Positions 446 to 23,573 of a stretch of DNA of 64,000 nucleotides are shown in pieces; positions within the stretch are counted from its first letter, which is position 1; each line of letters starts with the position of its first letter. This DNA is from Octopus vulgaris (lineage: Eukaryota). The notes beneath the pieces are model-generated. The model was not told the origin of the DNA. It ran no database searches and worked only from the letters and a program-made list of their open reading frames with translations. Position numbers and translations under genes: made by a program. The stretch spans positions 45,198,001 through 45,262,000 of the forward strand of contig OX597836.1 in the NCBI GenBank assembly GCA_951406725.2, read 5' to 3'.

Positions 446-1320
446 TTAAACGATCGCAACATAATTTTCCTGTGCGCACATCCACCCACACACAAACATG
501 TGTGTATATAAAATTATAGTTCCAGTCATTGGGTTGCTGCATGGTAGCACACCACTCTGAAGATTATTAAATTGGACGGAATTCACGGGCCTATTATAGT
601 AGTCGCACGTTGTGACTGTACTAAAAAAACCACATGGTTTCGAAGAGGAGTTTTTAATCACAGCCATACCTGCGCCTTGGGGTCGATGTAATCGACTTAA
701 TCCGTTTGTCTGCCCTTGTTTGTCCCCTCTGTTTAGCCCCTTGTGGGCAATAGAGAAATATATATATGTATGTGTTTGACGATATAGAGTATATGAACTA
801 GGGGCTTTCTTACTCAGTAAAACGTCTGAGCCATTGTATGATTACATGAAATCACAATGGGAGACCGTAGTCCTTGAGAACTTTGCCACTACTGGAACGG
901 CATGGAATTTGTTCGATCAGGGCTGATGTATATCTAACAATTTGTCTATCCTCTGAAGATTTGCAGTACTTAATTATTTGATAAAAGCCAATGTTTTGTA
1001 TAGAAGAGTGATTGGCAGTAAAAATATCCCCAAAATTATTTTAGTTATAAATTATATTATCGTTGTAATAAAATTTGCTTAATATTAATTTACATGAGCA
1101 AGTGATAGTCTTTCCAAAAAATAGTAAATGTTCCCAGAAATGGTTGGAAGTTATAAAAAATGAAATGTCTTGGGTGGAAATGAAGTTATCCTGAAGTGCT
1201 CCATGTAGCAATGTAGGGGAGAGGGTTAATGTGGTACTGGTAGGGGACAAGGAAGAAGCGATCAAAATGTTTTCCAGCAATGTACAATACTTGAGATCCT
1301 GGATCTGTTCTAAAACAATT

Positions 1321-1382
1321 GACTATGATGACACGTGTTGGATGTGATTGTCTGTGAATTCAATCCCTTGGCTGTCTGAGTC
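1321..1382 (+). ncRNA. SNORD53: Box C/D snoRNA, U53/SNORD53-like, copy 1 (presumed intron 1)
   Basis: gac-t-ATGATGA ... TCCCTTGGCTGT-CTGA-gtc. The guide is complementary to conserved LSU rRNA ACAGCCAAGGGA, and the D+5 rule points to the C equivalent to human 28S Cm3848. Human U53 ends CTTGGCTGTCTGA (recalled). Confidence 0.85.
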
Positions 1383-1680
1383 CACTTTATCTCACATTGT
1401 CCCTGTGTTGATAGTGAGGATAAGGGTCCCGTTGACTGTTTTAATCATAATTTGATAATTGCTTTTTTTTTTTTTACTTAGTTCCTGGAAGAATTCAAAC
1501 ATTTTTATTTTTCAATAATGTCCAAGTGTGTGTGTATGGGTTACTTAAGGGCCAGTACTTACATTGTACCTCAGTTGCGGACTTGAGACAATCGTGAGAT
1601 GGATAAACTACTTTTTTAGGCATGGCCTTTTTGAGTTTCAAATCTACCGATGGCTTTATCCCTCGGGGTCGATAATATAG

Positions 1681-2378: not shown

Positions 2379-2449
2379 TCGGGCAATGATGGAATTAAGA
2401 ATATTTGCTATATGAATACTAATGATTACAAATATTTTGCTGAGCCTGA
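2379..2449 (+). ncRNA. SNORD24: Box C/D snoRNA, U24/SNORD24-like, D'-guide type, copy 1
   Basis: tcgggc stem, C box ATGATGG, guide AAGAATATTTGCTAT + D' ATGA, C' ATGATTA, D CTGA, gcctga stem. The guide matches the recalled U24 5' element and pairs LSU UAGCAAAUAUUC (human Cm2352 equivalent). Confidence 0.82.
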
Positions 2450-2798
2450 CAAAACTTCAAACTTTTCCAGGTTACAAGGGTTTACAGTGCCATTTTGAGC
2501 GATTTCCAAAATGATCACAGAACCAAAGTAAAAGTATCAAAGAACATATTTGGGTTGTGTCCCTTCATTTTCATTTTTTTTTTTACACTTGTGTAAACTG
2601 AACAATTAACAATATATAGACAGAGGGAGGGAGTTTAGATTTAGACAAGATTTATTGTAGATTGGTGGGGTTAGTATGTACAGCAGACCAAATGCAGTTG
2701 TCAAGCACATTAAGGTTTTTGTTTTTCTGTTGAAATACGGAATTTTATGATTAAATTTTCAATTGGAAATCACATTTCCTCATTTGCGTCTCCTGCAG

Positions 2799-2916
2799 CC
2801 TAAATTCAAGAAAGGAAAAAAGAAGTTGCCACCAGTTCCTACTGTTGCTAGGAAGGTGGAACCAAAGAAAGTGGTCAACCCCCTGTTTGAGAAAAGACCA
2901 AAGAACTTTGGTATTG
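2799..2916 (+). CDS. RPL7A: 60S ribosomal protein L7a (eL8), first coding exon in window (exon 2; ATG exon presumed upstream)
   Basis: ctcctgcAG acceptor and GTGAGT donor. Translates [40 protein letters not shown], containing the eL8 motif [14 protein letters not shown]. Begins in phase 0 at Pro, consistent with an ATG-only exon 1. Length 118 nt. Confidence 0.96.
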
Positions 2917-3722
2917 GTGAGTAAATTCAAAATTTCTCTCTTCATTTTATAATAAAGTCTAGTGTTAGCAGTATTTTATGGAAGAACTTAACCCTTTTGT
3001 TACTGTATTTATTTTGAGATGCTCTGTGTTTCTTTCAATTACTTTAAATATAACAAAGAATTTAGTAAGATAACTTATTTATCATTTAGCTACTGTTAGG
3101 AACATAAATTGTGACTAAGGTTTGGTGGAAGATTTTAATTCCAAACTTCTGAAAACAAGATATTTGTACTCAGAGCCAGAGCCGGTTTCAGTCGGGCTGG
3201 TAACAAAAGGGTTGACCCTTTTGAAACTTTATGGTGATTTCTCCAAGTCAGATTTTCTGAGGAGTTTCATTGGATTCTATTTCTGGAATATCCAGTCAAA
3301 AGCCAGTGATTAATAGACCTGGACGGTTCTATTATTTAGCCAATGATCAATTCTAATCAAGCAGGCATGACCTAAAGTGTTTTGTCTTTCATTATCCAGT
3401 AAGTCCTTTCAATTATAAAATTGTAAAACTGATTTGCGGAAAATTGAACTAGTGGATTGAATTACCATTTAAAAACAGCAATGATTCTTTCTTCCACTTT
3501 TTCATTTCCTTCGTTTTCTATTCTAATATGATATTATGGTAAGATTTTCCAGGAATATTAGATTATAAATACACATAGCTTAGATTTTTTATACACCTTT
3601 TGTATTATATTTTGTAATTTATTATTGACTTGTTTAGTTCCTCACCATTATGCAGATTGAGTGTTCAATTTTATTTCTGTGGTAAAGAAATTGTGAGGTG
3701 GGCTCATGACTTCAGAAAATGT

Positions 3723-3793
3723 TCGGGCAATGATGGAATTAAGAATATTTGCTATATGAATATTGCTGATTACAAATATCTTGCTGAGCCTGA
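3723..3793 (+). ncRNA. SNORD24: Box C/D snoRNA, U24/SNORD24-like, D'-guide type, copy 2
   Basis: Near-identical to 2379-2449 within a ~190-bp duplication (about 2306-2492 vs 3646-3835). Guide, C, D' and D boxes intact. Confidence 0.82.
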
Positions 3794-4349
3794 CAAAACT
3801 TCAAACTTTTCCAGGTTACAAGGGTTTACAGTGCCCTGTTGACTGAAGTAAATTGTGGTCTTAATAGAGAAGTATTATTAAAAGCAAACGGTTATTTTAA
3901 ATAAAAAAATTGCTGCTTTTTAAAGAATATTTTAAACTGACCTCCAGATGAGATTTGTAGAAATAAAAGATGAGGTTTTTTTAAAAGTTTTCTCTATTTG
4001 AGAATAATTTTAAGAAAAAGGTGTTGACGTAACCTGAATAGAAAATAGGTTTTTGGAAGTATGGTTTCGAGTTTGATGTTACTGTGGACCTGTTTTATCT
4101 CCGCTTCAGATTAATCTGTTGAGGCTGTAAAACCGTGCAGCAGTTTGCTTCCTTTTACAAAAGAAAGACTAAAATTTAGTAATTCTCCTTCCATGTTGGT
4201 GCCCTGGCATGGCTGTAATTCAGTTGAAAAGAGTAAGAGGAACTGGTCAGGAAAACCACCACCTCTATTTGTGGGTTTCAAGATGAAAAACGTTAACCAA
4301 GATTATATTACTGCAAGAGAGAATATTTTAAAACATACAGTTTAAAACA

Positions 4350-4736
4350 GGCGCAGTAGTGGCTGTGTGGTAAGTAGCTTGTTTACCAACCACATGGTTC
4401 CAGGTTCAGTCCCACTGCGTGGCACCTTGGGCAAGTGTCTTCTACTATAGCCTCGGGCTGACCAAAGCCTTGTGAGTGGATTTGGTAGATGGAAACAGAA
4501 AGAAGCCCGTCGTATATATATATATATATATATGCGTGTCTGTGTTTGTCCCCTCCCAACATCGCTTGACAGCCGATGCTGGTGTGTTTACGTCCCTGTT
4601 ACTTAGCGGTTCGGCAAAAGAGACCGATAGAATAAGTACTGGGCTTACAAAAGAATAAGTCCCGGGGTCGAGTTGCTCGATTAAAGGCGGTGCTCCAGCA
4701 TGGCTGCAGTCAAATGACTGAAACAACTAAAGAGTA
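4350..4736 (+). mobile_element. tRNA-derived SINE family A with internal (TA)n
   Basis: Head GGCGCAG.AGTGGCTGTGTGGTAAG...GGTTCAGTCCC with A/B-box-like motifs. Other copies: ~9556-9902(-), 17560-17755(-, partial), 25243-25620(+), 28283-28669(-), 31474-31875(+), 36000-36403(-), 38814-39255(+), 54764-55245(+), 62535-62975(-). Confidence 0.88.
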
Positions 4737-5544
4737 AACAGTTGATGATGCCTGTAAAGCCAACTGGTGGAAGCACTAGACATGTTTCACTCCTATTAAA
4801 TCTCCTGTGTGTGATATATATGAACAGTCATACTGTAGCAGAATATTAATTCATTTTAAATGTAAATGGTTCATGAATATGTAAAATGTCTAAATAAATT
4901 CTAAGTTATAGAAATTAAATTATGATGGTTAACTCACTCTGGGTATATAAAATTACATACGAGTGAGGTTAGTTTTATTTCACAATTTATGTAAACTGGA
5001 CTTTTTTAAAAGAAAATATTTTATAATGGACAACCTAGTTCAGATCTAGCTGTAATATTGTGAATATTATACTACTGATGCATTATAGGGCAAGTCAACC
5101 CTGTGTCCATTGAGATAGTGGGAGATGATTAAAATGTGAAATGTCTTATCAAAGTTAATATGATTTAAGGCATTTAGTATAATAAAAATTACAATTGGTA
5201 CTTATCTGTCAGCTTAAAAAGAATGCATTTTATGGAATTCTGTTTCAATTAAAAAATTATTTTAGTTATAAATTACATTATCGTTGTCATAAAACTTCCC
5301 TCATATTAATTTACATGAGCAAGTGATTGTCTTTCCAAAAAATAGTAAATATTCTCAGAAATGGTTGGAAGTTATAAAAAATGAAATGTCTTGGGTGGAA
5401 ATGAAGTTGTCCTGAAGTGCTCCATGTAGTAATGTAGAGGAGAGGGTTAATGTGGTACTGGTAGGGGACATGGAAGAAGCGATCAAAATGTTTTCCAGCA
5501 ATGTACAATACTTGAGATCCTTGATCTGTTCTAAACAAGCAATT

Positions 5545-5606
5545 GACTATGATGACACTTGTTGGATGTGATTGTCTGTGAAATCTATCCCTTGGCTGTC
5601 TGAGTC
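5545..5606 (+). ncRNA. SNORD53: Box C/D snoRNA, U53/SNORD53-like, copy 2
   Basis: Same boxes and guide as copy 1. Lies in a ~385-bp duplicated block (about 1083-1465 vs 5302-5689). Confidence 0.85.
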
Positions 5607-6281
5607 CACTTTAATCTCACTTGGTCCCTGTGTTGATAGTGAGGGTTAGGGTCTGTTGACTGTCTTAATCATAATTTGATAATTGCTTTGCTACTAGCTA
5701 GTTAGCATTTGGGTTGCACTGGGTAAATGACTGGTATAGCTCTAGTGATACTGTTGACATAAATGTGTATATAGGGAGGGTTTACAAAAAAACAAAAGAC
5801 GAAGACAGGTGGTGTACATTAGTATAACATTCAGGAATAGAAAAAGTCTTTTACGTTTTGAGCCTACGCTCTTCTACAGAAAGGGACACAGAAAACAAGG
5901 TGAGAAAAAATGTGTATAGCCTGTTATTTTTATACACTAGTATTGGGAACGTTAGCTTTTAAGAACAAATATACTGAAAATAGTAAGCTCTAGCATTTTT
6001 GGTACCTTTCATAGGAAGAGTGCTCTACATATGGACCATCATTTTCTGTATCAGTGGTCATTTCAATATGTTTGTGTATGTATATATATGCACATCTCTG
6101 TTCACTTACTAGTAACAGTATAAAATAATGATTAAAATGATTTGCCATTTGAGTCTTATATAAAACGTTTACTTTTTTTTTTTTTTTTTTTTTTTTGTAA
6201 CTGATATTTTCTGAGAAATGTGAGAAGGAATTATTTAGTGAATCTAAAGGATCACAATAATTACAAGGCATATAATTTCTC

Positions 6282-6347
6282 AGCTATGAGGTTTACCTTG
6301 CCCTCTCTGACATTGATGAGACATTTTTTTATACGCATTTCTGAGCT
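6282..6347 (+). ncRNA. SNORD103: Box C/D snoRNA, U103/SNORD103-like, copy 1
   Basis: agc stem, variant C box ATGAGGT, guide CTTGCCCTCT + D' CTGA, C' TTGATGA, D CTGA-gct. The guide pairs SSU GGAGGGCAAG and D'+5 falls on the human 18S Gm601 equivalent. Long external stem gcatat...atatgc. Confidence 0.78.
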
Positions 6348-7003
6348 TTGAAAGAATATGCTTTTGTATTATGTGTGAGACCCAATTTTATTGTTGAAGC
6401 ACTTTTACATATATAATAGAGATGGGGATGTTGAAACAATGTTATATGACTATGAATATCTAATAAATATATACATGTATTTATATATTATACACAAACA
6501 CATTACAGAGGGATAAGAATTGGACTAAAATTACTCTTGAAAGTGTAGCTGATAGGTTCAGATGTCTTTTCAGACAATGACTGAATGGCAATAGTTGACA
6601 TCCTTGCTTCAGGGATCTGATGTTTAAACTGGTTACGTCTTGGTAGTTGTTTTCTATCCCTAAACAATATTTAGGGTTTAGATAATAACAAGGACTGACA
6701 CTTAAACAATTGGGAAATTGATGAAAAGCTTAGAGGAATGAGTGAGCATGGCTGGAAAGTAGGTGCTAGGATAGGAGTATGTCATGTAGAAGATGCCAAT
6801 ATTGGTCAAAGGCAGGTGAGATTAACCTGATATGTTAAACCTTGATTAGATATGGAATACAATGGATGAGTGGGATTCCTTAACACTAGAACTTGGTTTG
6901 TTATTGGACCTCATCAGCCAAACTGGTGCATTTAAAGTGACATGTTTACTAGAGAAGCCTTTCTGTTGGACTAAGGATGACAATTTCATTTAATTTTTTA
7001 GAT

Positions 7004-7135
7004 TGGAAGAGAGCTGCACACTTGTACCCCATGGTACATTTGTACGAAATCTCTTCCTACATTAACTTTGACAGTTGTAGGACACTGGTCATGATTATTT
7101 TGTGAATGAACTGGTGATATATGTCTGTTACATTA
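7004..7135 (+). ncRNA. Box H/ACA snoRNA, target not identified, copy 1
   Basis: Hairpin ggaagaga...tctcttcc, H box ACATTA (7059-7064), second hairpin gacag..cactgg/ctggtg..ctgtt, ACA at 7130-7132 plus 3 nt. Length 132 nt. Similarity to copy 2 is confined almost exactly to this span. Confidence 0.75.
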
Positions 7136-7337
7136 TTTTCTGTTAGATGCCTATTCGGCTTTAATATAGCATTTGGCATGGCCTGTCCCATTAGGAAGAG
7201 ACCAAGAGAATAAATATATCTGGGAAGATTTGTCTACCATCCAAAACAAAAGATGATCCCATTAGCATTTAGGCCAGCCATATCCAGCCCAAATATTCTA
7301 CCTGTTTCATGTTCAAACAAGTTAGATCTCATCTCAT

Positions 7338-7400
7338 ACCTGCCCTCTCTGGCATTGATGAGACATTTTTTTAATACACATTTCTGAGCTTTGAATGAAT
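7338..7400 (+). pseudogene. 5'-truncated U103-like snoRNA pseudogene
   Basis: Retains TGCCCTCT, C' TTGATGA and D CTGA-gct. D' is mutated to CTGG, and the C box and 5' stem are replaced by a MITE fragment (about 7258-7340, related to the reverse complement of the 8356-8576 MITE end). Confidence 0.7.
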
Positions 7401-8136
7401 ATACCTCTGTAAATTCTTGTTCTTAGTTAAGGCTTATGTAACTAGTTTTAACTAAAATACACTTCCCATGTGTAAATTCTGAAAAGTAGACTTTTGACAA
7501 AATAGGCATAATTTCATATGGAAATTGTGCTTCTATTATGAAGTTCAAGATGTAACGGTTTTATTTGTGTGCAATCTGTAGATAGAACACTAATATTATA
7601 TATGAGGTGTGTATATAGCTCATTGTATATCTGTGTTTGTCTCTTTGACATTGTGTGGTAGTTGCCATCATACTGGCTGCCATTTCCAATATATTTCATG
7701 AGGATATCTTGCCATGGAGAAATACTACCTTGCTTGGAATCAGGAAGGGCATTCAGCCATAAGAAGTATCCCTCAGTAAAGTCTGCCTGACCCTTGCAAG
7801 TATGAGAAAGTGGACGTTAAAATGTGTGGAATTTTTGGATTTAACAAGGACCTGAACATTATTGTGTAATATGTTCAGAAAATTGACAGGGTTTGTCTTT
7901 AACCCTTTTGATACTAACCCGGCCAAAACCGGCTCTGTGGTAAAATGTCTTGTTTTCATGTTTTGAATTAAAATCTTCCACCAAGCCTTAGTCACAATTT
8001 ACGTTCCTAACACTAGATTAATGATAACTAAGTTATTTTACTAAATTCTTTGTTATATTTAAAGTAATTGAAAGAAACACAGAGCATCTCAAAATAAATA
8101 CAGTAACGAATGGGTTAAAAAAAAAAGACAGTTTAT

Positions 8137-8268
8137 TGGAAGAGAGCTGCACACTTGTACCCCATGGTACATTTGTACGAAATCTCTTCCTATATTAACT
8201 GTGACAGTTGTAGGACACTGGTCATGATTATCTAGTGAATGAACTGGTGATATATGTCTGTCACATTA
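8137..8268 (+). ncRNA. Box H/ACA snoRNA, target not identified, copy 2
   Basis: Paralog of 7004-7135. H box ATATTA, ACA at 8263-8265. Substitutions preserve ANANNA and the basal stem (G-U to G-C). Confidence 0.75.
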
Positions 8269-9255
8269 TTTTCTATTAGATCAATGGATATTCAAAGAAT
8301 TTATTAGAATTTTTAGGTAAATTTTGGACCTACCATTTTGGTATTAACACTTTAACCCTTTAGCATTCAGATTATTCTCTCAAATGTGATGTTTGTTTAT
8401 TTATATTGTTTTGAATTAATCATGTATTATCTTGTAGTGTAGAGATTTCAGTGATGTGGTTTTTTTAGTTTTAGAATGACATGATAGGGCTGAGGTGAGA
8501 GGCGAAATCTGGTCAGTTTCAATATAAAGCAGGTTAAATATTCTGGCTGGACGTGGCCGGTTTGAATGCTAAAGGGTTAATATATTTTGGTACTGAAGAT
8601 AGGGTTTTGCCCAAGGATGACAGCTGGTGAAGTAATAATGATGAAACCTGGTTAGGAAAAATTAGTGGTTAATGAATTTCATTCTCTTGACAAAGGAAGC
8701 ATAGAGGATTGTGATTTTGAATTTTGGTATTGGTACTGTGAACAAAACAACTGATGTAAAGGGAGCTAAAAGATAAATAATTTAGAAACTACTGTTAGAT
8801 GAATAACTGGGCTGTTTCAATTACAGAAAGATAAGGTTTTATGAAACTAGTCTGAAGGACTAGTTTAAGGCCTGTCGATGGTATATTTTAAAGTATTCTA
8901 TTGATTTTAGTCTACTATTGTCATAGGAAGGGGGATAACTATAGTTTAACCATATTTTCAAATAACTTCTCATGCTTTCTGTAATAATTTTGTTTCTCAT
9001 CCCTCTGTTGTATGCTTATTTCTCTGGGTGCCAAATGGATGGCTTCAAAATGACTGCACCAAATCGTCCATTTGGTATTTCATTGTACCTTGTGATATAA
9101 TGGAATCTCTTGAACTATCAGACTGGAGTAAATTTGTTTTCTTTTCCAACATTTATGAATCTGACATGGTTTAATATTTCTAAGATTTTGGCGTTTTCCA
9201 TGATATTCTATACAGGTAATGCTTTAGATGGCTTTTGCAAAGCATATAATTTCTC

Positions 9256-9321
9256 AGCTATGAGGTTAACCTTGCCCTCTCTGACATTGATGAGACATTT
9301 TTTTATACGCATTTCTGAGCT
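9256..9321 (+). ncRNA. SNORD103: Box C/D snoRNA, U103/SNORD103-like, copy 2
   Basis: Nearly identical to 6282-6347, including the external stem aaagcatat...atatgcttt. Confidence 0.78.
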
Positions 9322-9956
9322 TTGAAAGAATATGCTTTTGTAGTTTCTTTGTGGAGCTTAATTATAATTAGATCTTTTGTTTCAATATAACTAGAATACA
9401 TTTTGAAAATAAAAGTTCCTTTCATAAATTTATAAAATTTCAAATCTAATCATAGGTAAGTTATTTCAATTTTGTGATATCATCTAACATGATAATATAC
9501 TGTATACTGAGAGAGAAGGAAGTGGGTGTGTGTGGTGAAAGCAGTATACTCTTTTTACCCTCTTGTTTCAGTCATTTGACTGGCCGTGCTGGAGCACCAC
9601 CTTTTAGTCTAGCAAATCGACTTATTCTTTGTGAGCCGAGTACTTATTCTATCGGTCTATTTTGCCGAACCGCTAAGTTACGGGGACGTAAACACACCAG
9701 TATCAGTTGTCAAGTGATGTTGGGGGCACACATATATACGACGGGCTTCTTTCAGTTTCCGTCTACCAAATCCACTCACAAGGCTTTGGTCGGCCCGAGG
9801 CTATAGTAGAAGACACTTGCCCAAGGTGCCACACAGTGTGACTGAACCCGGAACCATGTGGTTGGTAAGCAAGCTACTTACCACACAGCCACTCCTACGC
9901 CTAGTATACTAGATTTTTAGTTACTATTTCAAGGTTTCTGTGATTTCCATATAAAT

Positions 9957-10025
9957 TAACGGTGATGACAATAGTTATTGGTATTGAGTATTCTGTGAAA
10001 TTATACCCCTTGGCTGTCTGAGTTA
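9957..10025 (+). ncRNA. SNORD53: Box C/D snoRNA, U53/SNORD53-like, divergent copy 3
   Basis: taac-g-GTGATGA ... CCCTTGGCTGT-CTGA-gtta. The interior and stem differ from copies 1 and 2, but boxes, guide and stem complementarity are retained. Confidence 0.87.
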
Positions 10026-10339
10026 CTTGGAAATATGGCAGAACAAATATTAGTGAAAATCATATGAACTGAATTAGGTCTGTATATGTATTTTTTATTA
10101 CTATATAGTATTAGGTTTGACTTGCAGCTGAAAATTTTAAGGTTCTCTTGTTTGATGAATATAAATTATAGAGATATTAACTCGCAAGTAGCCTCTTATA
10201 ATTTCTCTAACTGAATCTTGCTAGCTGTGTAGTAAAATGCTGCATTTTATTAATTAGGAGCCCTAGTTCAGTAATAGTCCATTATATAGTTGCTTTGATA
10301 TGATTTGTTATGAAGTTATTTTTTTTGTATAATTTATCC

Positions 10340-10467
10340 TCACTGTTTTTGAACCTCTGCATTGTATGGTTTGTGCTGAGGCCAAGCAACAGTGAAATAA
10401 GAATACCAGTTCTGTAAACTCGGCATCCTCACTGATAGGGTTGTTGATTTGGTAACTGTTCACATGA
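10340..10467 (+). ncRNA. SNORA50: Box H/ACA snoRNA, ACA50/SNORA50-like
   Basis: 5' hairpin CACTGtttTTGAACCT...GGCCAAGCAACAGTG matches the recalled human ACA50. Pocket TTTGA/CAAGC brackets SSU GCUUG-U-C-UCAAA (human 18S Psi34). H box ATAAGA, ACA at 10462-10464. The 3' pocket AACT/TTTGG, 14 nt from ACA, is compatible with Psi105. Ends about 73 nt upstream of the exon 3 acceptor. Confidence 0.88.
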
Positions 10468-10540
10468 TTGATCTCTTGTTTATAAAAATATTTGGTTACA
10501 AATCAAACATGGCTAAATTTCATTGTGTATTTTTTTCCAG

Positions 10541-10690
10541 GTCAAGATATCCAACCCAAGAGGGATCTAACACGTTTTGTAAAATGGCCCCGTTACGTGA
10601 AGATCCAAAGGCAAAGGGCCGTTCTCTATAAACGCCTCAAAGTTCCACCACCAATCAATCAGTTCAGGCAGAATCTTAGCAAAGATTTAG
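10541..10690 (+). CDS. RPL7A: RPL7A exon 3
   Basis: ttttttccAG / GTAAGT; 150 nt, phase 1-1. Translates (G)[49 protein letters not shown]. Confidence 0.97.
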
Positions 10691-10777
10691 GTAAGTCCAG
10701 TTTTCTTTTGATTTGCCAAGATATAATGGCTATGTTGAGAATTTATATAGGCAACTCTTGATTATGTAATAGGTATT

Positions 10778-11462
10778 TTGGTATTCTTTCGATATGACTT
10801 GACAAAACCAAAGCACTTCAATTCAGCTGTTTCTCTGGAAGCACCTGGGGACTGATCCCGGAACCACGTGATTGGGAAGCAAGCTTCTTACCACAGAGCC
10901 ACGTGACTGTCAGTTGACGAAATGGGAGGAGGAGTAGAAGAAAGCGCTTGGGTTGTATGTCATTGCTTGTTCGCTTGCATACTTGTTCTTGTCTGTGTGC
11001 GTGTGTGCTTATCTATCTGTGCCTGTTCTGTTTTTATGTATTTATGAGTTGTGGAATATAGCTATACCGAAATTATGCCAGCAATGTCTCATTTTAATCT
11101 TGAAGAAAAAATGCCTTCCATATTTGTTCCTACCTGCTTCACGCCAAGCAGAAATATTGCAACATGCATGGAGAGAAGGAGGAACTACACAATGTATTTT
11201 ATGAATTTCATAAAAAAACATTCTTTGGGTTTAAATTAGTATAAAACTGCCTTCGTTATATCTATATTCCACAACACAAATACATAAAAACAGAACAAGC
11301 ATGCACACACAGAGAAAAGAACGTGCGGATAAGCACGCATGCATGTACAACCTATTGGCGTTCTTTTCCCATTTTGTCATCTGACATTTGACACGTGCTT
11401 CCATGGAAGCAGCCGAATTGAAGTGTTATTTGTCGAGTCATATCAAAAGAATACTGGTATTT
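10778..11462. mobile_element. MITE with ~65-bp imperfect TIRs
   Basis: gtattctttcgatatgacttgacaaa..cacttcaattc.. versus ..gaattgaagtgttatttgtcgagtcatatcaaaagaatac. The right part is duplicated at ~11868-12101. A related element at 57604-57891 shares the internal gaaattatgccagcaatgtctcattt. Confidence 0.68.
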
Positions 11463-11656
11463 TTTGAAAAGGAATTTAAAAATTGTCCACTGATTAGAGA
11501 GGGGTTGAAATAGTAGCTATTACTGGTTACCTAATGAAACTAGTCTAAATTCATGATTATTATAGAATCTAATTGAAACTCGTGAGGGGTGTATTTTGGT
11601 CAGAAATATGGTAACGAGAGGGTTAACTATAGGATGAGATAAGTGATGTTAAGACT

Positions 11657-11734
11657 TGGATAATGATGAAGTAAACTTGTCAGATTCCTGCCTGGTGATA
11701 ATCTAATCACTACCAACCGAGATCTCTGAGTCCA
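11657..11734 (+). ncRNA. SNORD24: Box C/D snoRNA, U24/SNORD24-like, D-guide type, copy 1
   Basis: tggat-a-ATGATGA ... ACTACCAACCGAGATCT-CTGA-gtcca. The guide pairs LSU AGAUCUUGGUGGUAGU with one G-U and one bulge; D+5 gives the human Cm2338 / yeast Cm1437 equivalent. Confidence 0.82.
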
Positions 11735-12541
11735 GTTTTAACTCTATTATGAATGATGAGCTTTGTTATAGTAACTTAGTAGATATTTTAAAAGTTTATT
11801 GTTAATGTATAACTCTTTTTGGTACCAACTTACCATATTTATGTATATATGTATGTATATATATACACACAGAACAAGCATGCACACACAGAGAAAAGAA
11901 CGTGCGAATAAGCACGCACGCATGTACAACCGATTGGCGTTCTTTTCCCATTTTGTCAACTGACATTTGACACGTGCTTCCATGGAAGCAGCCGAATTGA
12001 AGTGTTATTTGTTGAGTCATATCAAAAGAATACTGGCATTTTTTGAAAAGGAATTTAAAAATTGTCCACTGATTAGAGAAAGGTTGAAATAGTAGCTATT
12101 ATTTGTGTACCTGCTTTTGTCCCCATGCTGCAACTGAGTGCTCTTATACTACTGTACCCGACTGACCATACCGTGGTATATGACTTACAGCCAATGCAGT
12201 ACCAAGCATGATCAAGGTGAACTGGAAGAAATTATTAGGATTGTACAATTGTATAAAACCGTAGTGTCTACATTGACAATCATGTACAAGTGTATTTACC
12301 ATAGAATGTTTATAGCAGTGTTTCTCAACCTTTTTTACCCTTGCGTGACCCTTAAAATAAATTACATGCCTCAAGGAACCCCTGCATAAAAAAGAAAAAT
12401 TATATACCATATTTTTCTCATTTTTTCACTGTAGTATATTTTGATTATATATATATATATATATGTATATGTGTATATATATATATATATGTATTATATA
12501 TGTATGTATGTAAAGTTAGTTATTTAATGAAACTAGTTTAA

Positions 12542-15500
12542 CCCTTTCGTTACTATATTTCTGACCAAAATACACCACTCATGAGTTTCAATTAAATCCT
12601 AAAATAATCATGAATTTAGGCTTGTTTCATTAAATAACTAACTTTTTTACTTATCAACATACTGTGATATTTGGAACATAATTAAAGAAAGGGTTCTTAA
12701 TCAATTCTATTGCATAACTTTTGTCTCAAAGTGACTTTAATTACAGGTAAATCCAGGTAAATTGAGCAAAAGGTAAAAATATTAAAATTTTAAATTGAGC
12801 AAAAGGTAAAAAATTAAAATTTTGTTTAAACATCACCATAGAAAATGAATCATCAGCTAATATTCAAATGGGTATGCGACATAATTTTGATAAAGAAGAA
12901 TTGTGCACATCACTATATCATCAGTTGAATTTAATGCACAACAGGTGTACCATAAAGGTGGAATAAAGTGAAATAGTGGAATCCACCGTAAGTTTGACCG
13001 AACTAAAGAAATCGGTCGGAAAATAATATACGACCCTGGTTATGGTATGGAAGTGATAAATTCCAGACCACATCGTACCCTAAGCCATGCTGACTAACAT
13101 TAGTTTTCCCTGTATAAAAACTAAATCCACGCAGTACCCAGTATTTGCTTCACAAATTTCCCAAACTTTGAACCACGATTTTGGGTTTGGTTACGTTCTG
13201 CGTAAGTTTGTTTCCGAAGTGATCGCTTCAAACAATAACTTCCAGACCACATCGTACCCTAAGCCATGCTGACTAACATTATTTTCCCTGTATAAAAACT
13301 AAATCCACGCAGTACCCAGTATTTGCTTCACAAATTTCCCAAACTTTGAACCCCGATTTTGGGTTTGTTTACGTTCTGCGTAAGTTTGTTTCCGAAGTGA
13401 TCGCTTCAAACAATAACTTCCAGACCACATCGTACCCTAAGCCATGCTGACTAACATTATTTTCCCTGTATAAAAACTAAATCCACGCAGTACCCAGTAT
13501 TTGCTTCACAAATTTCCCAAACTTTGAACCCCGATTTTGGGTTTGTTTACGTTCTGCGTAAGTTTGTTTCCGAAGTGATCGCTTCAAACAATAACTTCCA
13601 GACCACATCGTACCCTAAGCCATGCTGACTAACATTATTTTCCCTGTATAAAAACTAAATCCACGCAGTACCCAGTATTTGCTTCACAAATTTCCCAAAC
13701 TTTGAACCCCGATTTTGGGTTTGTTTACGTTCTGCGTAAGTTTGTTTCCGAAGTGATCGCTTCAAACAATAACTTCCAGACCACATCGTACCCTAAGCCA
13801 TGCTGACTAACATTATTTTTCCCTGTATAAAAACTAAATCCACGCAGTACCCAGTATTTGCTTCACAAATTTCCCAAACTTTGAACCCCGATTTTGGGTT
13901 TGGTTTACGTTCTGCGTAAGTTTGTTTCCGAAGTGATCGCTTCAAACAATAACTTCCAGACCACATCGTACCCTAAGCCATGCTGACTAACATTATTTTC
14001 CCTGTATAAAAACTAAATCCACGCAGTACCCAGTATTTGCTTCACAAATTTCCCAAACTTTGAACCCCAATTTTGGGTTTGTTTACGTTCTGCGTAAGTT
14101 TGTTTCCGAAGTGATCGCTTCAAACAATAACTTCCAGACCACATCGTACCCTAAGCCATGCTGACTAACATTATTTTCCCTGTATAAAAACTAAATCCAC
14201 GCAGTACCCAGTATTTGCTTCACAAATTTCCCAAACTTTGAACCCCGATTTTGGGTTTGTTTACGTTCTGCGTAAGTTTGTTTCCGAAGTGATCGCTTCA
14301 AACAATAACTTCCAGACCACATCGTACCCTAAGCCATGCTGACTAACATTATTTTCCCTGTATAAAAACTAAATCCACGCAGTACCCAGTATTTGCTTCA
14401 CAAATTTCCCAAACTTTGAACCCCGATTTTGGGTTTGTTTACGTTCTGCGTAAGTTTGTTTCCGAAGTGATCGCTTCAAACAATAACTTCCAGACCACAT
14501 CGTACCCTAAGCCATGCTGACTAACATTATTTTTCCCTGTATAAAAACTAAATCCACGCAGTACCCAGTATTTGCTTCACAAATTTCCCAAACTTTGAAC
14601 CCCAATTTTGGGTTTGTTTACGTTCTGCGTAAGTTTGTTTCCGAAGTGATCGCTTCAAACAATAACTTCCAGACCACATCGTACCCTAAGCCATGCTGAC
14701 TAACATTATTTTCCCTGTATAAAAACTAAATCCACGCAGTACCCAGTATTTGCTTCACAAATTTCCCAAACTTTGAACCCCGATTTTGGGTTTGTTTACG
14801 TTCTGCGTAAGTTTGTTTCCGAAGTGATCGCTTCAAACAATAACTTCCAGACCACATCGTACCCTAAGCCATGCTGACTAACATTATTTTCCCTGTATAA
14901 AAACTAAATCCACGCAGTACCCAGTATTTGCTTCACAAATTTCCCAAACTTTGAACCCCGATTTTGGGTTTGTTTACGTTCTGCGTAAGTTTGTTTCCGA
15001 AGTGATCGCTTCAAACAATAACTTCCAGACCACATCGTACCCTAAGCCATGCTGACTAACATTATTTTTCCCTGTATAAAAACTAAATCCACGCAGTACC
15101 CAGTATTTGCTTCACAAATTTCCCAAACTTTGAACCCCGATTTTGGGTTTGTTTACGTTCTGCGTAAGTTTGTTTCCGAAGTGATCGCTTCAAACAATAA
15201 CTTCCAGACCACATCGTACCCTAAGCCATGCTGACTAACATTATTTTCCCTGTATAAAAACTAAATCCACGCAGTACCCAGTATTTGCTTCACAAATTTC
15301 CCAAACTTTGAACCCCGATTTTGGGTTTGTTTACGTTCTGCGTAAGTTTGTTTCCGAAGTGATCGCTTCAAACAATAACTTCCAGACCACATCGTACCCT
15401 AAGCCATGCTGACTAACATTATTTTCCCTGTATAAAAACTAAATCCACGCAGTACCCAGTATTTGCTTCACAAATTTCCCAAACTTTGAACCCCGATTTT

Positions 15501-16650
15501 GGGTTTGTTTACGTTCTGCGTAAGTTTGTTTCCGAAGTGATCGCTTCAAACAATAACTTCCAGACCACATCGTACCCTAAGCCATGTTGACTAACATTAT
15601 TTTCCCTGTATAAAAACTAAATCCACGCAGTACCCAGTATTTGCTTCACAAATTTCCCAAACTTTGAACCCCGATTTTGGGTTTGTTTACGTTCTGCGTA
15701 AGTTTGTTTCCGAAGTGATCGCTTCAAACAATAACTTCCAGACCACATCGTACCCTAAGCCATGTTGACTAACATTATTTTTCCTGTATAAAAACTAAAT
15801 CCACGCAGTACCCAGTATTTGCTTCACAAATTTCCCAAACTTTGAACCCCGATTTTGGGTTTGTTAACGTTCTGCGTAAGTTTGTTTCCGAAGTGATCGC
15901 TTCAAACAATAACTTCCAGACCACATCGTACCCTAAGCCATGCTGACTAACATTATTTTTCCCTGTATAAAAACTAAATCCACGCAGTACCCAGTATTTG
16001 CTTCACAAATTTCCCAAACTTTGAACCCCGTTTTGGGTTTGTTTACATTCTGCGTAAGTTTGTTTCTGAAGTGATCGCTTCAAACTAGCATACTGAAAAA
16101 AATAAAAGTCTAATGGTTTCACTTCCTAAGAAAGGCTATGGATAAACTTTATCTCCTCAGAAAAATTGCTAATAAAAGCATTTTAAAAGTTTTTTTACTT
16201 CATTCCGATGTAAAATCGCCTTCGCTGCATTGTCTCTTCGGAAGGCGCTGCTTTCATTTTCGGATAAAAAAATATTCATTATTTTGTTCACCACGTGCTT
16301 TAGTACCTATTTCATTCTTTTTCTTGATATCTCCCTATTTTCCGTTGACAAAGCTTTAAATTCAGAATCAATGCTTGATAACATGAAACTCCTATCCATT
16401 TTCAAAGTTGAAGAAAAATCGATGCCGAAAAACATGTGGAAAAAAATCTCCCAAAATTCACTGAGTTGAGATATCACTTCAAGCAATGTCGGATACTATA
16501 ACTTAACTATTTACAATGTCAAATCACATGCTTTAACGAATGTACCAACGAGATTTGGGTTCAAATTTACATTTAAATAACAATAGGTCCTCACGGCCGG
16601 GTTGGTATTATGGACCAAAAAATTTTTCGGCCGGCTTAGTAACGAAAGGG
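12542..16650 (-). mobile_element. Internally deleted piggyBac element
   Basis: Perfect 14-bp TIRs CCCTTTCGTTACTA / TAGTAACGAAAGGG with TTAA on both sides. Removing it restores a sequence matching the paralogous empty site at about 11532-11565. The minus strand has frameshifted piggyBac transposase motifs: FEAITSETN, GFKVWEICEANTGYC, YTGK, GLGYDVVW, YHNQGRILFSDRF. Confidence 0.88.
13061..16085. repeat. Tandem array of 17 near-identical 178-180 bp units
   Basis: Unit starts (TTCCAGACCACATCG) at 13061, 13240, 13418, 13596, 13774, 13954, 14132, 14310, 14488, 14667, 14845, 15023, 15202, 15380, 15558, 15736 and 15914. Units differ by a few substitutions and homopolymer indels. Confidence 0.97.
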
Positions 16651-16764
16651 TTAAATTAATGATTATTATAGAATTTAATTGAAACTCATGAGGGGTGTGT
16701 ATTTTTGTCAAAAATATAGTAACGAGAGGGTTAACTGTAGGATGAGATAAGTGATGTTAAGACT

Positions 16765-16842
16765 TGGATAATGATGAAGTAAACCTGTCAGATCCCTGCA
16801 TGGTGATAATCTAATCACTACCAACCGAGATCTCTGAGTCCA
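16765..16842 (+). ncRNA. SNORD24: Box C/D snoRNA, U24-like D-guide type, copy 2 (inside hAT element)
   Basis: Near-identical to 11657-11734; boxes, guide and stem intact. Confidence 0.82.
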
Positions 16843-17304
16843 GTTTTAACTGTATTAGGAATGAGGAGCTTTGTTATAGTAATTTAGTAGATATTTTAAA
16901 AGTTTATTGTTAATGTATAACTCTTTTTGGTACCAACTTACCTGAGATATATGTATATATATGTATGTGTTGTCCATAAATTACAGACATCACTAAATAT
17001 ATCCCCAATGATTGTTATATTTTTTGTTAACATAGGTTAGCTAGGATGATGTCTATATTACAATAGCCAATAACATGTTGTGCATGTATAGTAATATTAC
17101 GATCATGAAATTAATATTAGCTTATCTCACTCTTTCTCACGGAACCCTGGGAACCTCAGAAACCCTGGTTGAGAAATGCTGGTTTATAGTTTTGTATTTG
17201 TTAGTAAATACACAATCCTGTAATTGAATCCGACCAGAATTTAATTAGGTTGTATTTTAGTGCAATTACTTAAATGTATTGTTTTTTTTTGTTTCAAATT
17301 GCAG

Positions 17305-17525
17305 CAACTCAGACGTTTAAACTTCTGGACAAATATCGTCCAGAGACCAGGCATCAGAAAAAAGCACGTTTAAGGGCCCGTGCTGAGAAACGAGCTGCAG
17401 GTAAAGCAGACACACCAACAAAACGCCCCCCTGTTGTTAGGTCTGGAGCCAATACTGTGACCTCCCTTATAGAACAGAAAGCAGCCCAATTAGTTGTCAT
17501 TGCTCATGATGTTGATCCCATTGAG
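17305..17525 (+). CDS. RPL7A: RPL7A exon 4
   Basis: ttgcAG / GTAGGT; 221 nt, phase 1-0. Translates (A)[73 protein letters not shown], including the L7Ae motif [12 protein letters not shown]. Confidence 0.97.
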
Positions 17526-17752
17526 GTAGGTATTTACCCTAAGTGCATTGGATCTCTCTCTCTTTTACTTGTTTCAGTCGTTTGACTGCAGCCATGCTGG
17601 AGCACCGCCTTTAGTCAAGCAACTTGACCCCGACTTATTCTTTGTAAGCCTAGTACTTATTTGTATCGGTCTCTTTTGCCGAACTGCTAAGTGACGGAGA
17701 CATAAACACACCAGCATCGGTTGTCAAGCAATGTTGGGGGGACAAACACACA

Positions 17753-17796
<44 letters not shown>

Positions 17797-17863
17797 CATA
17801 TTTTGGTCAGAAATATGGTAACGAGAGGGTTAACTATAGGATGAGATAGGTGATGTTAAGACT

Positions 17864-17941
17864 TGGATAATGATGAAGTAAACCTGTCAGATCCCTGCAT
17901 GGTGATAATCTAATCACTACCAACCGAGATCTCTGAGTCCA
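17864..17941 (+). ncRNA. SNORD24: Box C/D snoRNA, U24-like D-guide type, copy 3 (intron 4)
   Basis: Identical in boxes and guide to 16765-16842. Confidence 0.82.
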
Positions 17942-19300
17942 GTTTTAACTGTATTAGGAATGATGAGCTTTGTTATAGTAACTTAGTAGATATTTTAAAA
18001 GTTTATTGTTAATGTGATACCAACTTACTTGAGATAGCTTCTATATAAATTTTCTGTTTAAAAGCGATATAAATTAAAATTTTTTAAAGTGTTAGTTTAT
18101 ATTCCAAACATTAGCTTAATAATTTCAATAAATTTGTTATTATTTTCTCAAACATTTCACGTGGAAAACACTAACATAACAGAGAGCATGATTTTTAATT
18201 AGCTGATGATGGTAATGATGAAATATATTGGGGGGATTAGATTCACACATTTTCAATGCTACTTTTAATTATTTGAATTACTCCTGTATATAAATCTACA
18301 CACATTAATTGAATTGCTCTTGTATGTACTCCAGTACAGGCTTTTACCATTTTCCTAAATATGGTTGGTGTCGAGTTATTTCCCTTTTAACCAGTTTGAA
18401 TTTGCTCTTATCTGAACCCATAGTTTAAAATTTTGCAAATAAAACAAAGAATGTTTGATCCCTTATAAAAAGTGAGCAAGTACCCCCTCATTACATGTAT
18501 CTTTGGTAATGTAATGTTGGCTAAATCATAGTTGGAATCCCTTTGTTGGTTGGTGCTTTCAACCTGGGTTCACCTTTGGCTACAAACTACAGCCCAACGT
18601 TTCAATTTCATAAAAACATTTACAAAAAAGACATTGTAAAATGAGGTCAACATGGGAATGAATTTACTTTGCAGATGTTGCAAATGATTGAATTATGCAC
18701 CAATTGTCTTGTCAGTAAATCTGTCTCTCTCTCTCCCCCTCTCCTGCGGAGGGGACCAGTCGATTAGATCAGCCCCAGTACGCAACTGGTCCTTAATTTA
18801 TCGACCCCAAAAAGTTGAAAGGCAAAGTCGACCTATATATATATATATATATATACATATATATATGTATATATACACATATATCTCGTTGCTGTCATAT
18901 GTCCCAAATTTGGCCAAATGTTTTTTTTTTTTAAATATTTAATTTTGCTTGGTCAAACTATTGTATCTCCAGCGCTGTTTCAGTTGAAAATTGCCAGTGT
19001 AGTACAACAGTTTAATATTTTTCAAAAGTGTAGTAAGTCCTACATAAGACAGTTTTGCAAAAAATATTTTCTGACTGAAAATATACTCGCATAGTTACGA
19101 TTTTAAGCACCCAGCAAAGTATTTATGAAGGCTGAACCTGTTGCTAATGTAAAAAGAAATGGAACGGTGAAACTATTGTTTCGCTTCCTGAAAATGCAAT
19201 GTTTTGAACTTGTGACACGTTTGCATAATAATGATATACACACACACTAACAGTATTGTAACAGCAGTAAAGGAGTTTGAAGCTATGGATGTAAGCAAAT

Positions 19301-19376
19301 TGGACAGTGATGAAGACAATTTATCAGTTACATCTCCATGGTGATATTTTATTTACTACCGAGATCTCTGAGTCCA
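19301..19376 (+). ncRNA. SNORD24: Box C/D snoRNA, U24-like D-guide type, divergent copy 4
   Basis: Perfect tggac/gtcca stem, GTGATGA, guide ACTACCGAGATCT-CTGA pairing AGAUCUUGGUGGU over 13 nt with two G-U pairs. Confidence 0.87.
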
Positions 19377-20085: not shown

Positions 20086-20160
20086 GATCACAGTGATGCT
20101 TGAATTTCTTCAACTGAATTTTTGTAATTTTGAAGACAACTTGACAACTTCTGAGTGATC
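20086..20160 (+). ncRNA. SNORD36: Box C/D snoRNA, U36C/SNORD36-like
   Basis: Perfect gatcac/gtgatc stem, C box GTGATGC, guide TTGAATTTCTTCA + D' CTGA (20114), D CTGA (20151). Pairs LSU UGAAGAAAUUCAA; D'+5 gives the human Am3703 / yeast Am2220 equivalent. Confidence 0.86.
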
Positions 20161-20583: not shown

Positions 20584-20714
20584 CTTGTACTCTTTATGCC
20601 TGCACTGTGTCGTAAAACTGATGTCCCCTATTGCATCGTAAAAGGAAAGGCTCGTCTTGGCAGAGTTGTCAACACAAAGACCTGCTCATGTCTGGCCATC
20701 ACCGACGTCTATCC
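20584..20714 (+). CDS. RPL7A: RPL7A exon 5
   Basis: cttttcAG / GTAAGT; 131 nt, phase 0-2. Translates [43 protein letters not shown](P). Confidence 0.96.
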
Positions 20715-22110: not shown

Positions 22111-22180
22111 GGAAGACAAGTCAAATTTGAATAATTTAATCACAGCCATAAGGACAGACTTCAACGACAGGTTTGATGAG
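22111..22180 (+). CDS. RPL7A: RPL7A exon 6
   Basis: atttcAG / GTCAGT; 70 nt, phase 2-0. Translates EDKSNLNNLITAIRTDFNDRFDE. Confidence 0.94.
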
Positions 22181-23468: not shown

Positions 23469-23573
23469 ATTCGCCGTCATTGGGGTGGTGGTATTTTGGG
23501 TTGCAAGTCCCGGGCCAAGTTAAGTAAGTTGGAGAGAGTGCGTGCTAAAGAAATAGCACAGAAGCTGGGTTAA
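23469..23573 (+). CDS. RPL7A: RPL7A last exon (to TAA stop)
   Basis: ttttccAG acceptor. Translates [34 protein letters not shown]. The six exons sum to 795 nt in frame, giving 265 aa with an upstream ATG. Confidence 0.97.

What the first reader, a model, noticed from the sequence alone, without database searches (positions are those of the whole stretch)
2379..19376. U24 apparently split into two single-guide snoRNA families
Known: vertebrate and yeast U24 is a double-guide RNA, with the D' element GAAUAUUUGCUA and the D element ACCACCAAGAUC targeting adjacent LSU cytidines. Seen: copies at 2379 and 3723 have only the D' guide, while copies at 11657, 16765, 17864 and 19301 have only the D guide. 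No copy in the window has both. Inference: duplication followed by reciprocal guide loss (subfunctionalisation) within the ancestral host gene.
Basis: partly seen in the sequence, partly recalled or inferred. Interest (0 to 1): 0.8.

Follow-up and report, generated by a model that had tools for sequence, protein, structure and literature searches.

The report
Octopus U24 snoRNA split in two
In the introns of an octopus ribosomal-protein gene (RPL7A), the small guide RNA U24, which in vertebrates marks two ribosomal RNA sites for methylation, is present only as two kinds of half-equipped copies, each predicted to mark one site, likely after duplication and opposite losses; such splits are already known for this and other guide RNAs.

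Summary
Observation confirmed, with corrections. Six box C/D genes lie in introns 1-4 of an octopus RPL7A gene. Two (2381, 3725) carry only the D' guide. Four (11657, 16765, 17864, 19301) carry only the D guide. By the +5 rule they target this genome's 28S C1939 and C1925 (human Cm2365 and Cm2351), 14 nt apart. The D guide reads ACCGAGAUC, matching a C in this genome's 28S (38 of 42 copies). The vacant slots pair with rRNA, U2 or U6 only at chance level. Two genome-wide patterns found no double-guide copy. The best Rfam SNORD24 hit elsewhere is a U76-like Am guide. The six copies are three lineages; recent local duplications inflate the count. Outgroup RPL7A genes from metagenomes hold double-guide U24 in the same introns, so loss is the likely direction. 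No relic of the lost guide survives in either family, so common origin is inferred from host and position. Expression and methylation are untested. Splitting of double-guide snoRNAs is published for U36, for fungal U24/U24b and for U24/U76. This is a new, undated instance of a known kind.

The parts
2381..2447 (+). Family A copy 1, RPL7A intron 1. Box C ATGATGG 2386-2392 (one mismatch), D' guide 2399-2411, box D' ATGA 2412-2415, box C'-like 2422-2428, vacant D slot, box D 2440-2443, terminal stem
   Evidence: 12 Watson-Crick pairs plus 1 G-U to own 28S 1935-1947; +5 rule gives C1939
3725..3791 (+). Family A copy 2, intron 2; same D' guide (3743-3755), box D 3784-3787; inside a 196-nt segment 96% identical to the one around copy 1
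11657..11734 (+). Family B1 copy, intron 3. Box C 11663-11669, no D' guide, D guide ACCGAGATCT 11716-11725 extended by 6 pairs past a one-base bulge, box D 11726-11729
   Evidence: duplex -25.8 kcal/mol; +5 rule gives 28S C1925
16765..16842 (+). Family B1 copy, intron 3; recent local duplicate
17864..17941 (+). Family B1 copy, intron 4; core identical to the 16765 copy
19301..19376 (+). Family B2, intron 4; older paralogue of B1, no bulge, D guide ending 19367, box D 19368-19371
   Evidence: 75% identical to B1 in the RNA, flanks 57% and 52% against 49 +/- 5% for random intron pairs; duplex -23.4 kcal/mol
2799..2916 (+). RPL7A exon 2 (likely exon 1, ending in ATG, lies 599 nt upstream of the window, in L009)
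10541..10690 (+). RPL7A exon 3
17305..17525 (+). RPL7A exon 4
   Evidence: 86% identical to Argonauta eL8; PF01248
20584..20714 (+). RPL7A exon 5 (exons 6 and 7 at 22111-22180 and 23469-23573)
20088..20159 (+). SNORD36 (U36), intron 4; carries only the 28S guide; conserved neighbour of U24 in RPL7A
   Evidence: same host in L053 and L059

Best explanation
These are six intronic box C/D snoRNA genes in octopus RPL7A, in two families that each carry one of U24's two guides and that likely arose by duplication of a double-guide U24 followed by opposite guide loss. Family A is predicted to direct 2'-O-methylation of 28S C1939 (human Cm2365) through box D'. Family B is predicted to direct C1925 (human Cm2351) through box D. 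Both would be released from spliced introns and load fibrillarin as ordinary C/D RNPs (established mechanism, not tested here). U76-like RNAs at other loci would supply the Am two bases from A's site, so three single-guide RNAs would cover this one rRNA stretch. Shown: anatomy, pairing, vacancy of the second slot, absence of a double-guide pattern, outgroup state. Inferred: common origin, order of events, expression, methylation.
For: Boxes and stems in all six. Guides pair with the genome's own 28S in the +5 register at the two U24 cytidines (human sites from PMC11550049 table passage). All 4 of 4 B copies have G where 53 of 57 distinct double-guide outgroup cores have A, matching the C in 38 of 42 genomic 28S copies: the guide fits the rRNA change. 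B1 and B2 keep boxes, stem and guide while flanks are near random. Vacant slots reach 5-7 Watson-Crick pairs against rRNA, U2 and U6; random intron 15-mers mostly reach 6-7, and the true guides reach 12. No double-guide match genome-wide: 0 with the strict pattern; 10 with a loose one, 0 of 10 with a C box. Of 58 D'-pattern matches, 51 distinct places were read downstream: apart from the two A copies, only U76-like loci had snoRNA anatomy, and none had an intact D guide. Of 117 metagenome loci with the D guide, 83 also have the D' guide. Three kinds of RPL7A gene among them hold a double-guide U24 in intron 2 (L053) or intron 3 (L059/L037/L082; L092).
Against: No relic of the lost guide in A or B (p 0.40-0.63), although the same test detects relics in the U76-like L011 (p 0.01-0.02) and in the teleost-like intron-3 copy (p 0.02-0.04). 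A and B are no more alike (59-60%) than either is to U36 (58-59%). No mollusc outgroup was available, so the split is undated. No RNA evidence. A has a non-consensus box C and box D', and its 3' half can pair with its own guide. All C/D copies lie 351-6749 nt from the next 3' splice site, several per intron. Pattern searches miss diverged copies, and the Rfam genome search scored only 59 candidates and missed the window's own copies.
Confidence: 0.65

Rival explanations
1. Both families are functional single guides, but not sister halves of one duplication. B is U24 that lost its D' guide. A arose separately, from a U76-like paralogue whose D' spacing shifted from Am to Cm, or by a guide moving onto another C/D scaffold.
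For: No shared relic and no excess similarity between A and B. Guide exchange is real in this family: L056, L058, L079, L099 and L148 pair the U24 D guide with a D' element complementary to an 18S site. A has weak likeness to Rfam snoR124 (33.4 bits against cut-off 70).
Against: A's element AAGAATATTTGCTAT is letter for letter that of the teleost-like U24 in L053, with Cm spacing, and one A copy sits in the same intron 2. The genome's U76-like RNAs lie in other hosts with the Am spacing.
Confidence: 0.15
2. Simple loss rather than partition: only B works, and A is silent or self-blocked, so the C1939 methylation is gone or weak.
For: A has box C ATGATGG and box D' ATGA. Its 3' half has an 8-base complement to its own guide (p 0.004-0.01, noticed after the fact), and 2381-2447 folds that way. 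The two A copies are too young to show selection. Sponges show one-sided U24 guide loss (PMC3412847 passages).
Against: A keeps a perfect 12-base guide, four boxes and a 6-pair stem while its D slot has decayed beyond recognition, which a dead gene would not do. The intramolecular fold is no more stable than shuffles (z 0.08), whereas the rRNA duplex is -16.0 kcal/mol.
Confidence: 0.12
3. A double-guide U24 exists but is missed (assembly gap or divergent boxes), and the six genes are redundant decaying paralogues, like the second copy in the teleost-like locus.
For: L053 has an intact double-guide copy in intron 2 beside an intron-3 copy with a decayed D' guide. Genome searches warn that no match does not prove absence. 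L195/L217 has a C box, the D' element and an 8-base D-like word.
Against: Four independent patterns and the D' survey give no such gene. L195 lacks box D and a stem, and its D-side score is not clearly above chance among 51 candidates.
Confidence: 0.08

Closest known systems
SNORD24 / U24 (Rfam RF00069), vertebrate form in RPL7A
   Same: Same host gene and homologous introns; same two 28S cytidines in the same +5 register; neighbour of U36.
   Different: The two guides are on separate RNAs; the D guide has an A-to-G change fitting this genome's 28S; each copy falls below the Rfam cut-off.
Fungal U24/U24b (S. pombe) and CD50/CD51 (N. crassa); vertebrate U24/U76
   Same: The same family divided into independent single-function RNAs (PMC2780460 passages).
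   Different: Those splits separate the Cm site from the Am site. Here the animal Cm+Cm form is itself divided, both halves stay in RPL7A, and U76-like RNAs exist in addition.
U36A/U36C in human against double-guide chicken GGgCD18
   Same: Separation of two guides among paralogues in RPL7A introns (PMC2653536 section 10).
   Different: Different family and targets (18S and 28S).
Sponge SNORD24 in RPL5
   Same: An animal U24 that keeps one guide only, shown to be expressed in one species (PMC3412847 passages).
   Different: Different host; no reciprocal partner reported in the passages read.
SNORD76 / U76
   Same: Same upstream element; present in this genome at L011:1501-1572 and L171, predicted target A1937.
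   Different: Family A has the Cm spacing and sits in RPL7A, so it is not U76.

Membership tests
box C/D methylation-guide snoRNA | Box C and box D near the ends with a terminal stem | tested here: met
   6 of 6; A copies have one mismatch in box C
box C/D methylation-guide snoRNA | 10 or more bases antisense to rRNA directly upstream of box D or D' | tested here: met
box C/D methylation-guide snoRNA | Expressed as a stable small RNA bound by fibrillarin; site methylated | not testable with these tools
   no reads were laid; no methylation data
SNORD24 (RF00069) | Score at or above the Rfam gathering cut-off of 41 bits | tested here: not met
   30.8, 31.1 and 31.3 bits for 2381, 3725 and 19302; B1 copies not listed
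SNORD24 (RF00069) | Two guides on one RNA | tested here: not met
   one guide each
SNORD24 (RF00069) | D guide for the Cm2351-equivalent site (family B) and D' guide for the Cm2365-equivalent site (family A) | tested here: met
   (+5 rule); human numbering
SNORD24 (RF00069) | Intronic in RPL7A, as in vertebrates | tested here: met
SNORD24 (RF00069) | Common descent of A and B from one U24 gene | tested here: inconclusive
   no relic, no excess identity; position agrees
SNORD76 (for family A) | D' spacing that selects the A (Am2363 equivalent) | tested here: not met
   A selects C1939; L011 and L171 select A1937

The most novel reading that the evidence does not exclude
The intron-2 and intron-3 U24 copies are an old animal duplication in which the intron-3 copy tends to lose the D' guide (seen here and, partly, in a teleost-like locus). 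Octopus completed the partition, let the freed D guide grow into A's binding site and let A's vacant slot become a mimic of its own target. It packs about nine snoRNA-like elements into one intron by short in-gene duplications, which would need a release route other than one snoRNA per intron.
Probability: 0.12. Interest if true: 0.55.

Novelty: new member of a known kind. Interest (0 to 1): 0.3.

Why it matters
It is a tidy natural case of guide partition: three single-guide RNAs predicted to cover three methyl groups within 15 bases of 28S rRNA, each removable on its own. It also shows a guide fitting a lineage-specific rRNA change, and that Rfam cut-offs miss such half-genes and mislabel the U76-like gene as SNORD24. 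It does not reveal a new mechanism: separation of guide functions is documented in fungi, birds and mammals.

Tried and rejected
Relic test for the lost guides: negative for A and B. New targets for the vacant slots in 28S, 18S, 5.8S, U2 and U6: chance level; U1, U4, U5, tRNA and mRNA were not tested. L011 as the missing double-guide U24: rejected, it is a U76-like Am guide whose D side pairs at only -7.2 kcal/mol. The other 8 of 9 Rfam genome hits are GAT-rich repeats or lack boxes. L020/L021 and L022 (D guide word plus a TGATG): no terminal stem evident, treated as chance. L195/L217 as a fossil double-guide copy: top D-side score of 51 but not clearly above chance, no box D. Likeness of family B's 5' part to L038/L076: those lie between ORFs with no RPL7A match, so no homology is claimed. 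An 18S-guide partner for U36: none found with the vertebrate-type or the own-18S pattern. Folding: no structure beyond shuffles except 19301 (z -2.1). The tool for fetching named genomes' loci was closed and no reads could be laid, so mollusc outgroups and expression stay open. The tally had a pattern error and was redone. Our-findings look-ups returned nothing. Literature searches listed no paper on cephalopod U24; the library lacks most subscription papers, the original U24 paper was not held, and no supplements were read, where annotation tables could list these genes.
Full report
Host and anatomy. The region is an RPL7A (eL8) gene. Exon 4 is 86% identical to Argonauta eL8, whose cluster holds Octopus proteins that match the window's exons, so the host is an octopus. 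Exons 2-7 lie at 2799-2916, 10541-10690, 17305-17525, 20584-20714, 22111-22180 and 23469-23573. The likely exon 1, a pyrimidine tract followed by ATG and a donor site, lies 599 nt upstream of the window; it was the nearest of 3 such candidates in 20 kb. All six elements named in the finding have box C, box D and a terminal stem. A (2381, 3725) is in introns 1 and 2; B is in intron 3 (11657, 16765) and intron 4 (17864, 19301).

Targets. I took 28S, 18S and 5.8S from an rDNA unit of the same genome. A pairs with 28S 1935-1947 over 12 Watson-Crick pairs plus one G-U and selects C1939. B1 pairs with 1921-1930, then after a one-base bulge with 1931-1936; B2 pairs without a bulge; both select C1925. 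These correspond to human Cm2365 and Cm2351, both assigned to SNORD24, with Am2363 assigned to SNORD76 (PMC11550049, table passage). All four B copies have the fitting G; only 4 of 57 distinct double-guide outgroup cores do. B1 and B2 are 75% identical within the RNA and 57% and 52% in their flanks, against 49 +/- 5% for random intron pairs. That points to selection on B.

Are the second slots empty? Their best pairing to rRNA, U2 or U6 is 5-7 Watson-Crick pairs, the chance level; true guides reach 12. A model from 30 double-guide U24 genes finds the six copies and nothing else in the window, with A aligning over the 5' half only. A relic test found no trace of the lost guide in A or B (p 0.40-0.63), though it does detect relics in two other paralogues. 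A and B are no closer to each other than to U36. Common origin therefore rests on host, position and guide identity.

Is there a double-guide copy elsewhere? The strict pattern gave 0 matches. A loose one gave 10, none with a C box. The D-guide pattern gave 10 overlapping matches at 6 places: the four B copies and two without a stem. The D' guide with Cm spacing gave only the two A copies. A loose D' pattern gave 58 matches; 51 distinct places were read. These added L011, L171 and a copy followed by an A run (L181), all U76-like and selecting A1937. L011 is the only locus over the Rfam SNORD24 cut-off (46 bits); that search scored 59 candidates and missed the window's copies, so it is weak evidence of absence.

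Outgroups. Among distinct doubles the Am spacing (25) and the Cm spacing (19) are the main classes. Three kinds of RPL7A gene appear. L053, closest to a teleost protein, has a double-guide U24 in intron 2 and a copy with a decayed D' guide in intron 3. L059/L037/L082 and L092, which my protein panel could not place, have a double-guide U24 in intron 3. So the double state in these introns is widespread and one-sided decay of a duplicate occurs elsewhere. No mollusc locus could be fetched, so the split is undated and may predate octopods.

Copy number. Short segments centred on snoRNAs have been copied within the gene: 196 nt at 96% for A and 217-317 nt at 92-97% for B1. The six genes are three lineages, and some copies may be redundant or silent.

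Known cases. Fungal U24 is split into U24/U24b and CD50/CD51, and the authors discuss duplication with reciprocal loss for another family (PMC2780460, passages). Human U36A/U36C divide what one chicken RNA does (PMC2653536, passages and section 10). Sponge SNORD24 keeps one guide (PMC3412847, passages). Yeast and Arabidopsis U24 guide Cm plus Am (PMC3511168, table row; PMC8817022, passages). The last paper notes that the two sites of its U24 equivalent are too close to be occupied at once, which suggests little is lost by separating them (my inference). Most C/D snoRNAs are single-guide (PMC5824354, passages). PMC6984369 and PMC11014333 gave no U24 passage. Seven searches listed nothing on cephalopod U24.

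Verdict. It is a new instance of a known kind of event; interest 0.3.

Noticed in passing
window 1320-1383, 5544-5607, 9957-10025: Three more C/D snoRNAs with an 11-12 base D guide to 28S 3458-3469; weak Rfam match to SNORD53/92. The label U74/snR64-like is recalled, from no call.
   Followed up: partly
window 6279-6350, 9253-9324, about 7318-7392: Two SNORD103-like C/D genes with an 18S guide and a third copy that has lost box C and looks decayed.
   Followed up: partly
window 10338-10467; 7002-7148 and 8135-8281: A SNORA50-like H/ACA gene 73 nt from the 3' splice site, and a duplicated 147-nt element (96%) that may be another H/ACA RNA; no Rfam match.
   Followed up: no
window 2917-10540: Intron 2 holds about nine snoRNA-like elements. 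The non-repeat local duplications in the gene are mostly short segments centred on a snoRNA. How several RNAs leave one intron is unexplained.
   Followed up: partly
window 2448-2472 and 3792-3816: Both A copies are followed within about 25 nt by a pyrimidine run and CAG|GT, like a 3' or recursive splice site; untested.
   Followed up: no
window 2430-2439: A's vacant D slot reads like its own rRNA target and can pair with its own guide over 8 bases (p 0.004-0.01, post hoc).
   Followed up: partly
window 20088-20159: U36 has only the 28S guide. This genome's 18S differs at the other U36 site, and no partner guide was found. The U36 in L059 is also single-guide.
   Followed up: yes
window 13056-16085: A 178-nt tandem array, 17 copies, 99% matches, inside intron 3.
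   Followed up: no
L011:1501-1572; L215:4581-4640; L218:2393-2460: Two U76-like genes, the first beside another C/D gene with a 28S guide, and a likely retrocopy ending in an A run.
   Followed up: partly
L056, L058, L079, L099, L148: Metagenome snoRNAs that join the U24 D guide with a D' element complementary to an 18S site: guide exchange in another lineage.
   Followed up: partly
L038:1325-1396; L076:485-556: D-only U24-like genes between ORFs of an AT-rich genome (43.9 and 38.7 bits); their 5' part resembles family B, probably by chance.
   Followed up: partly
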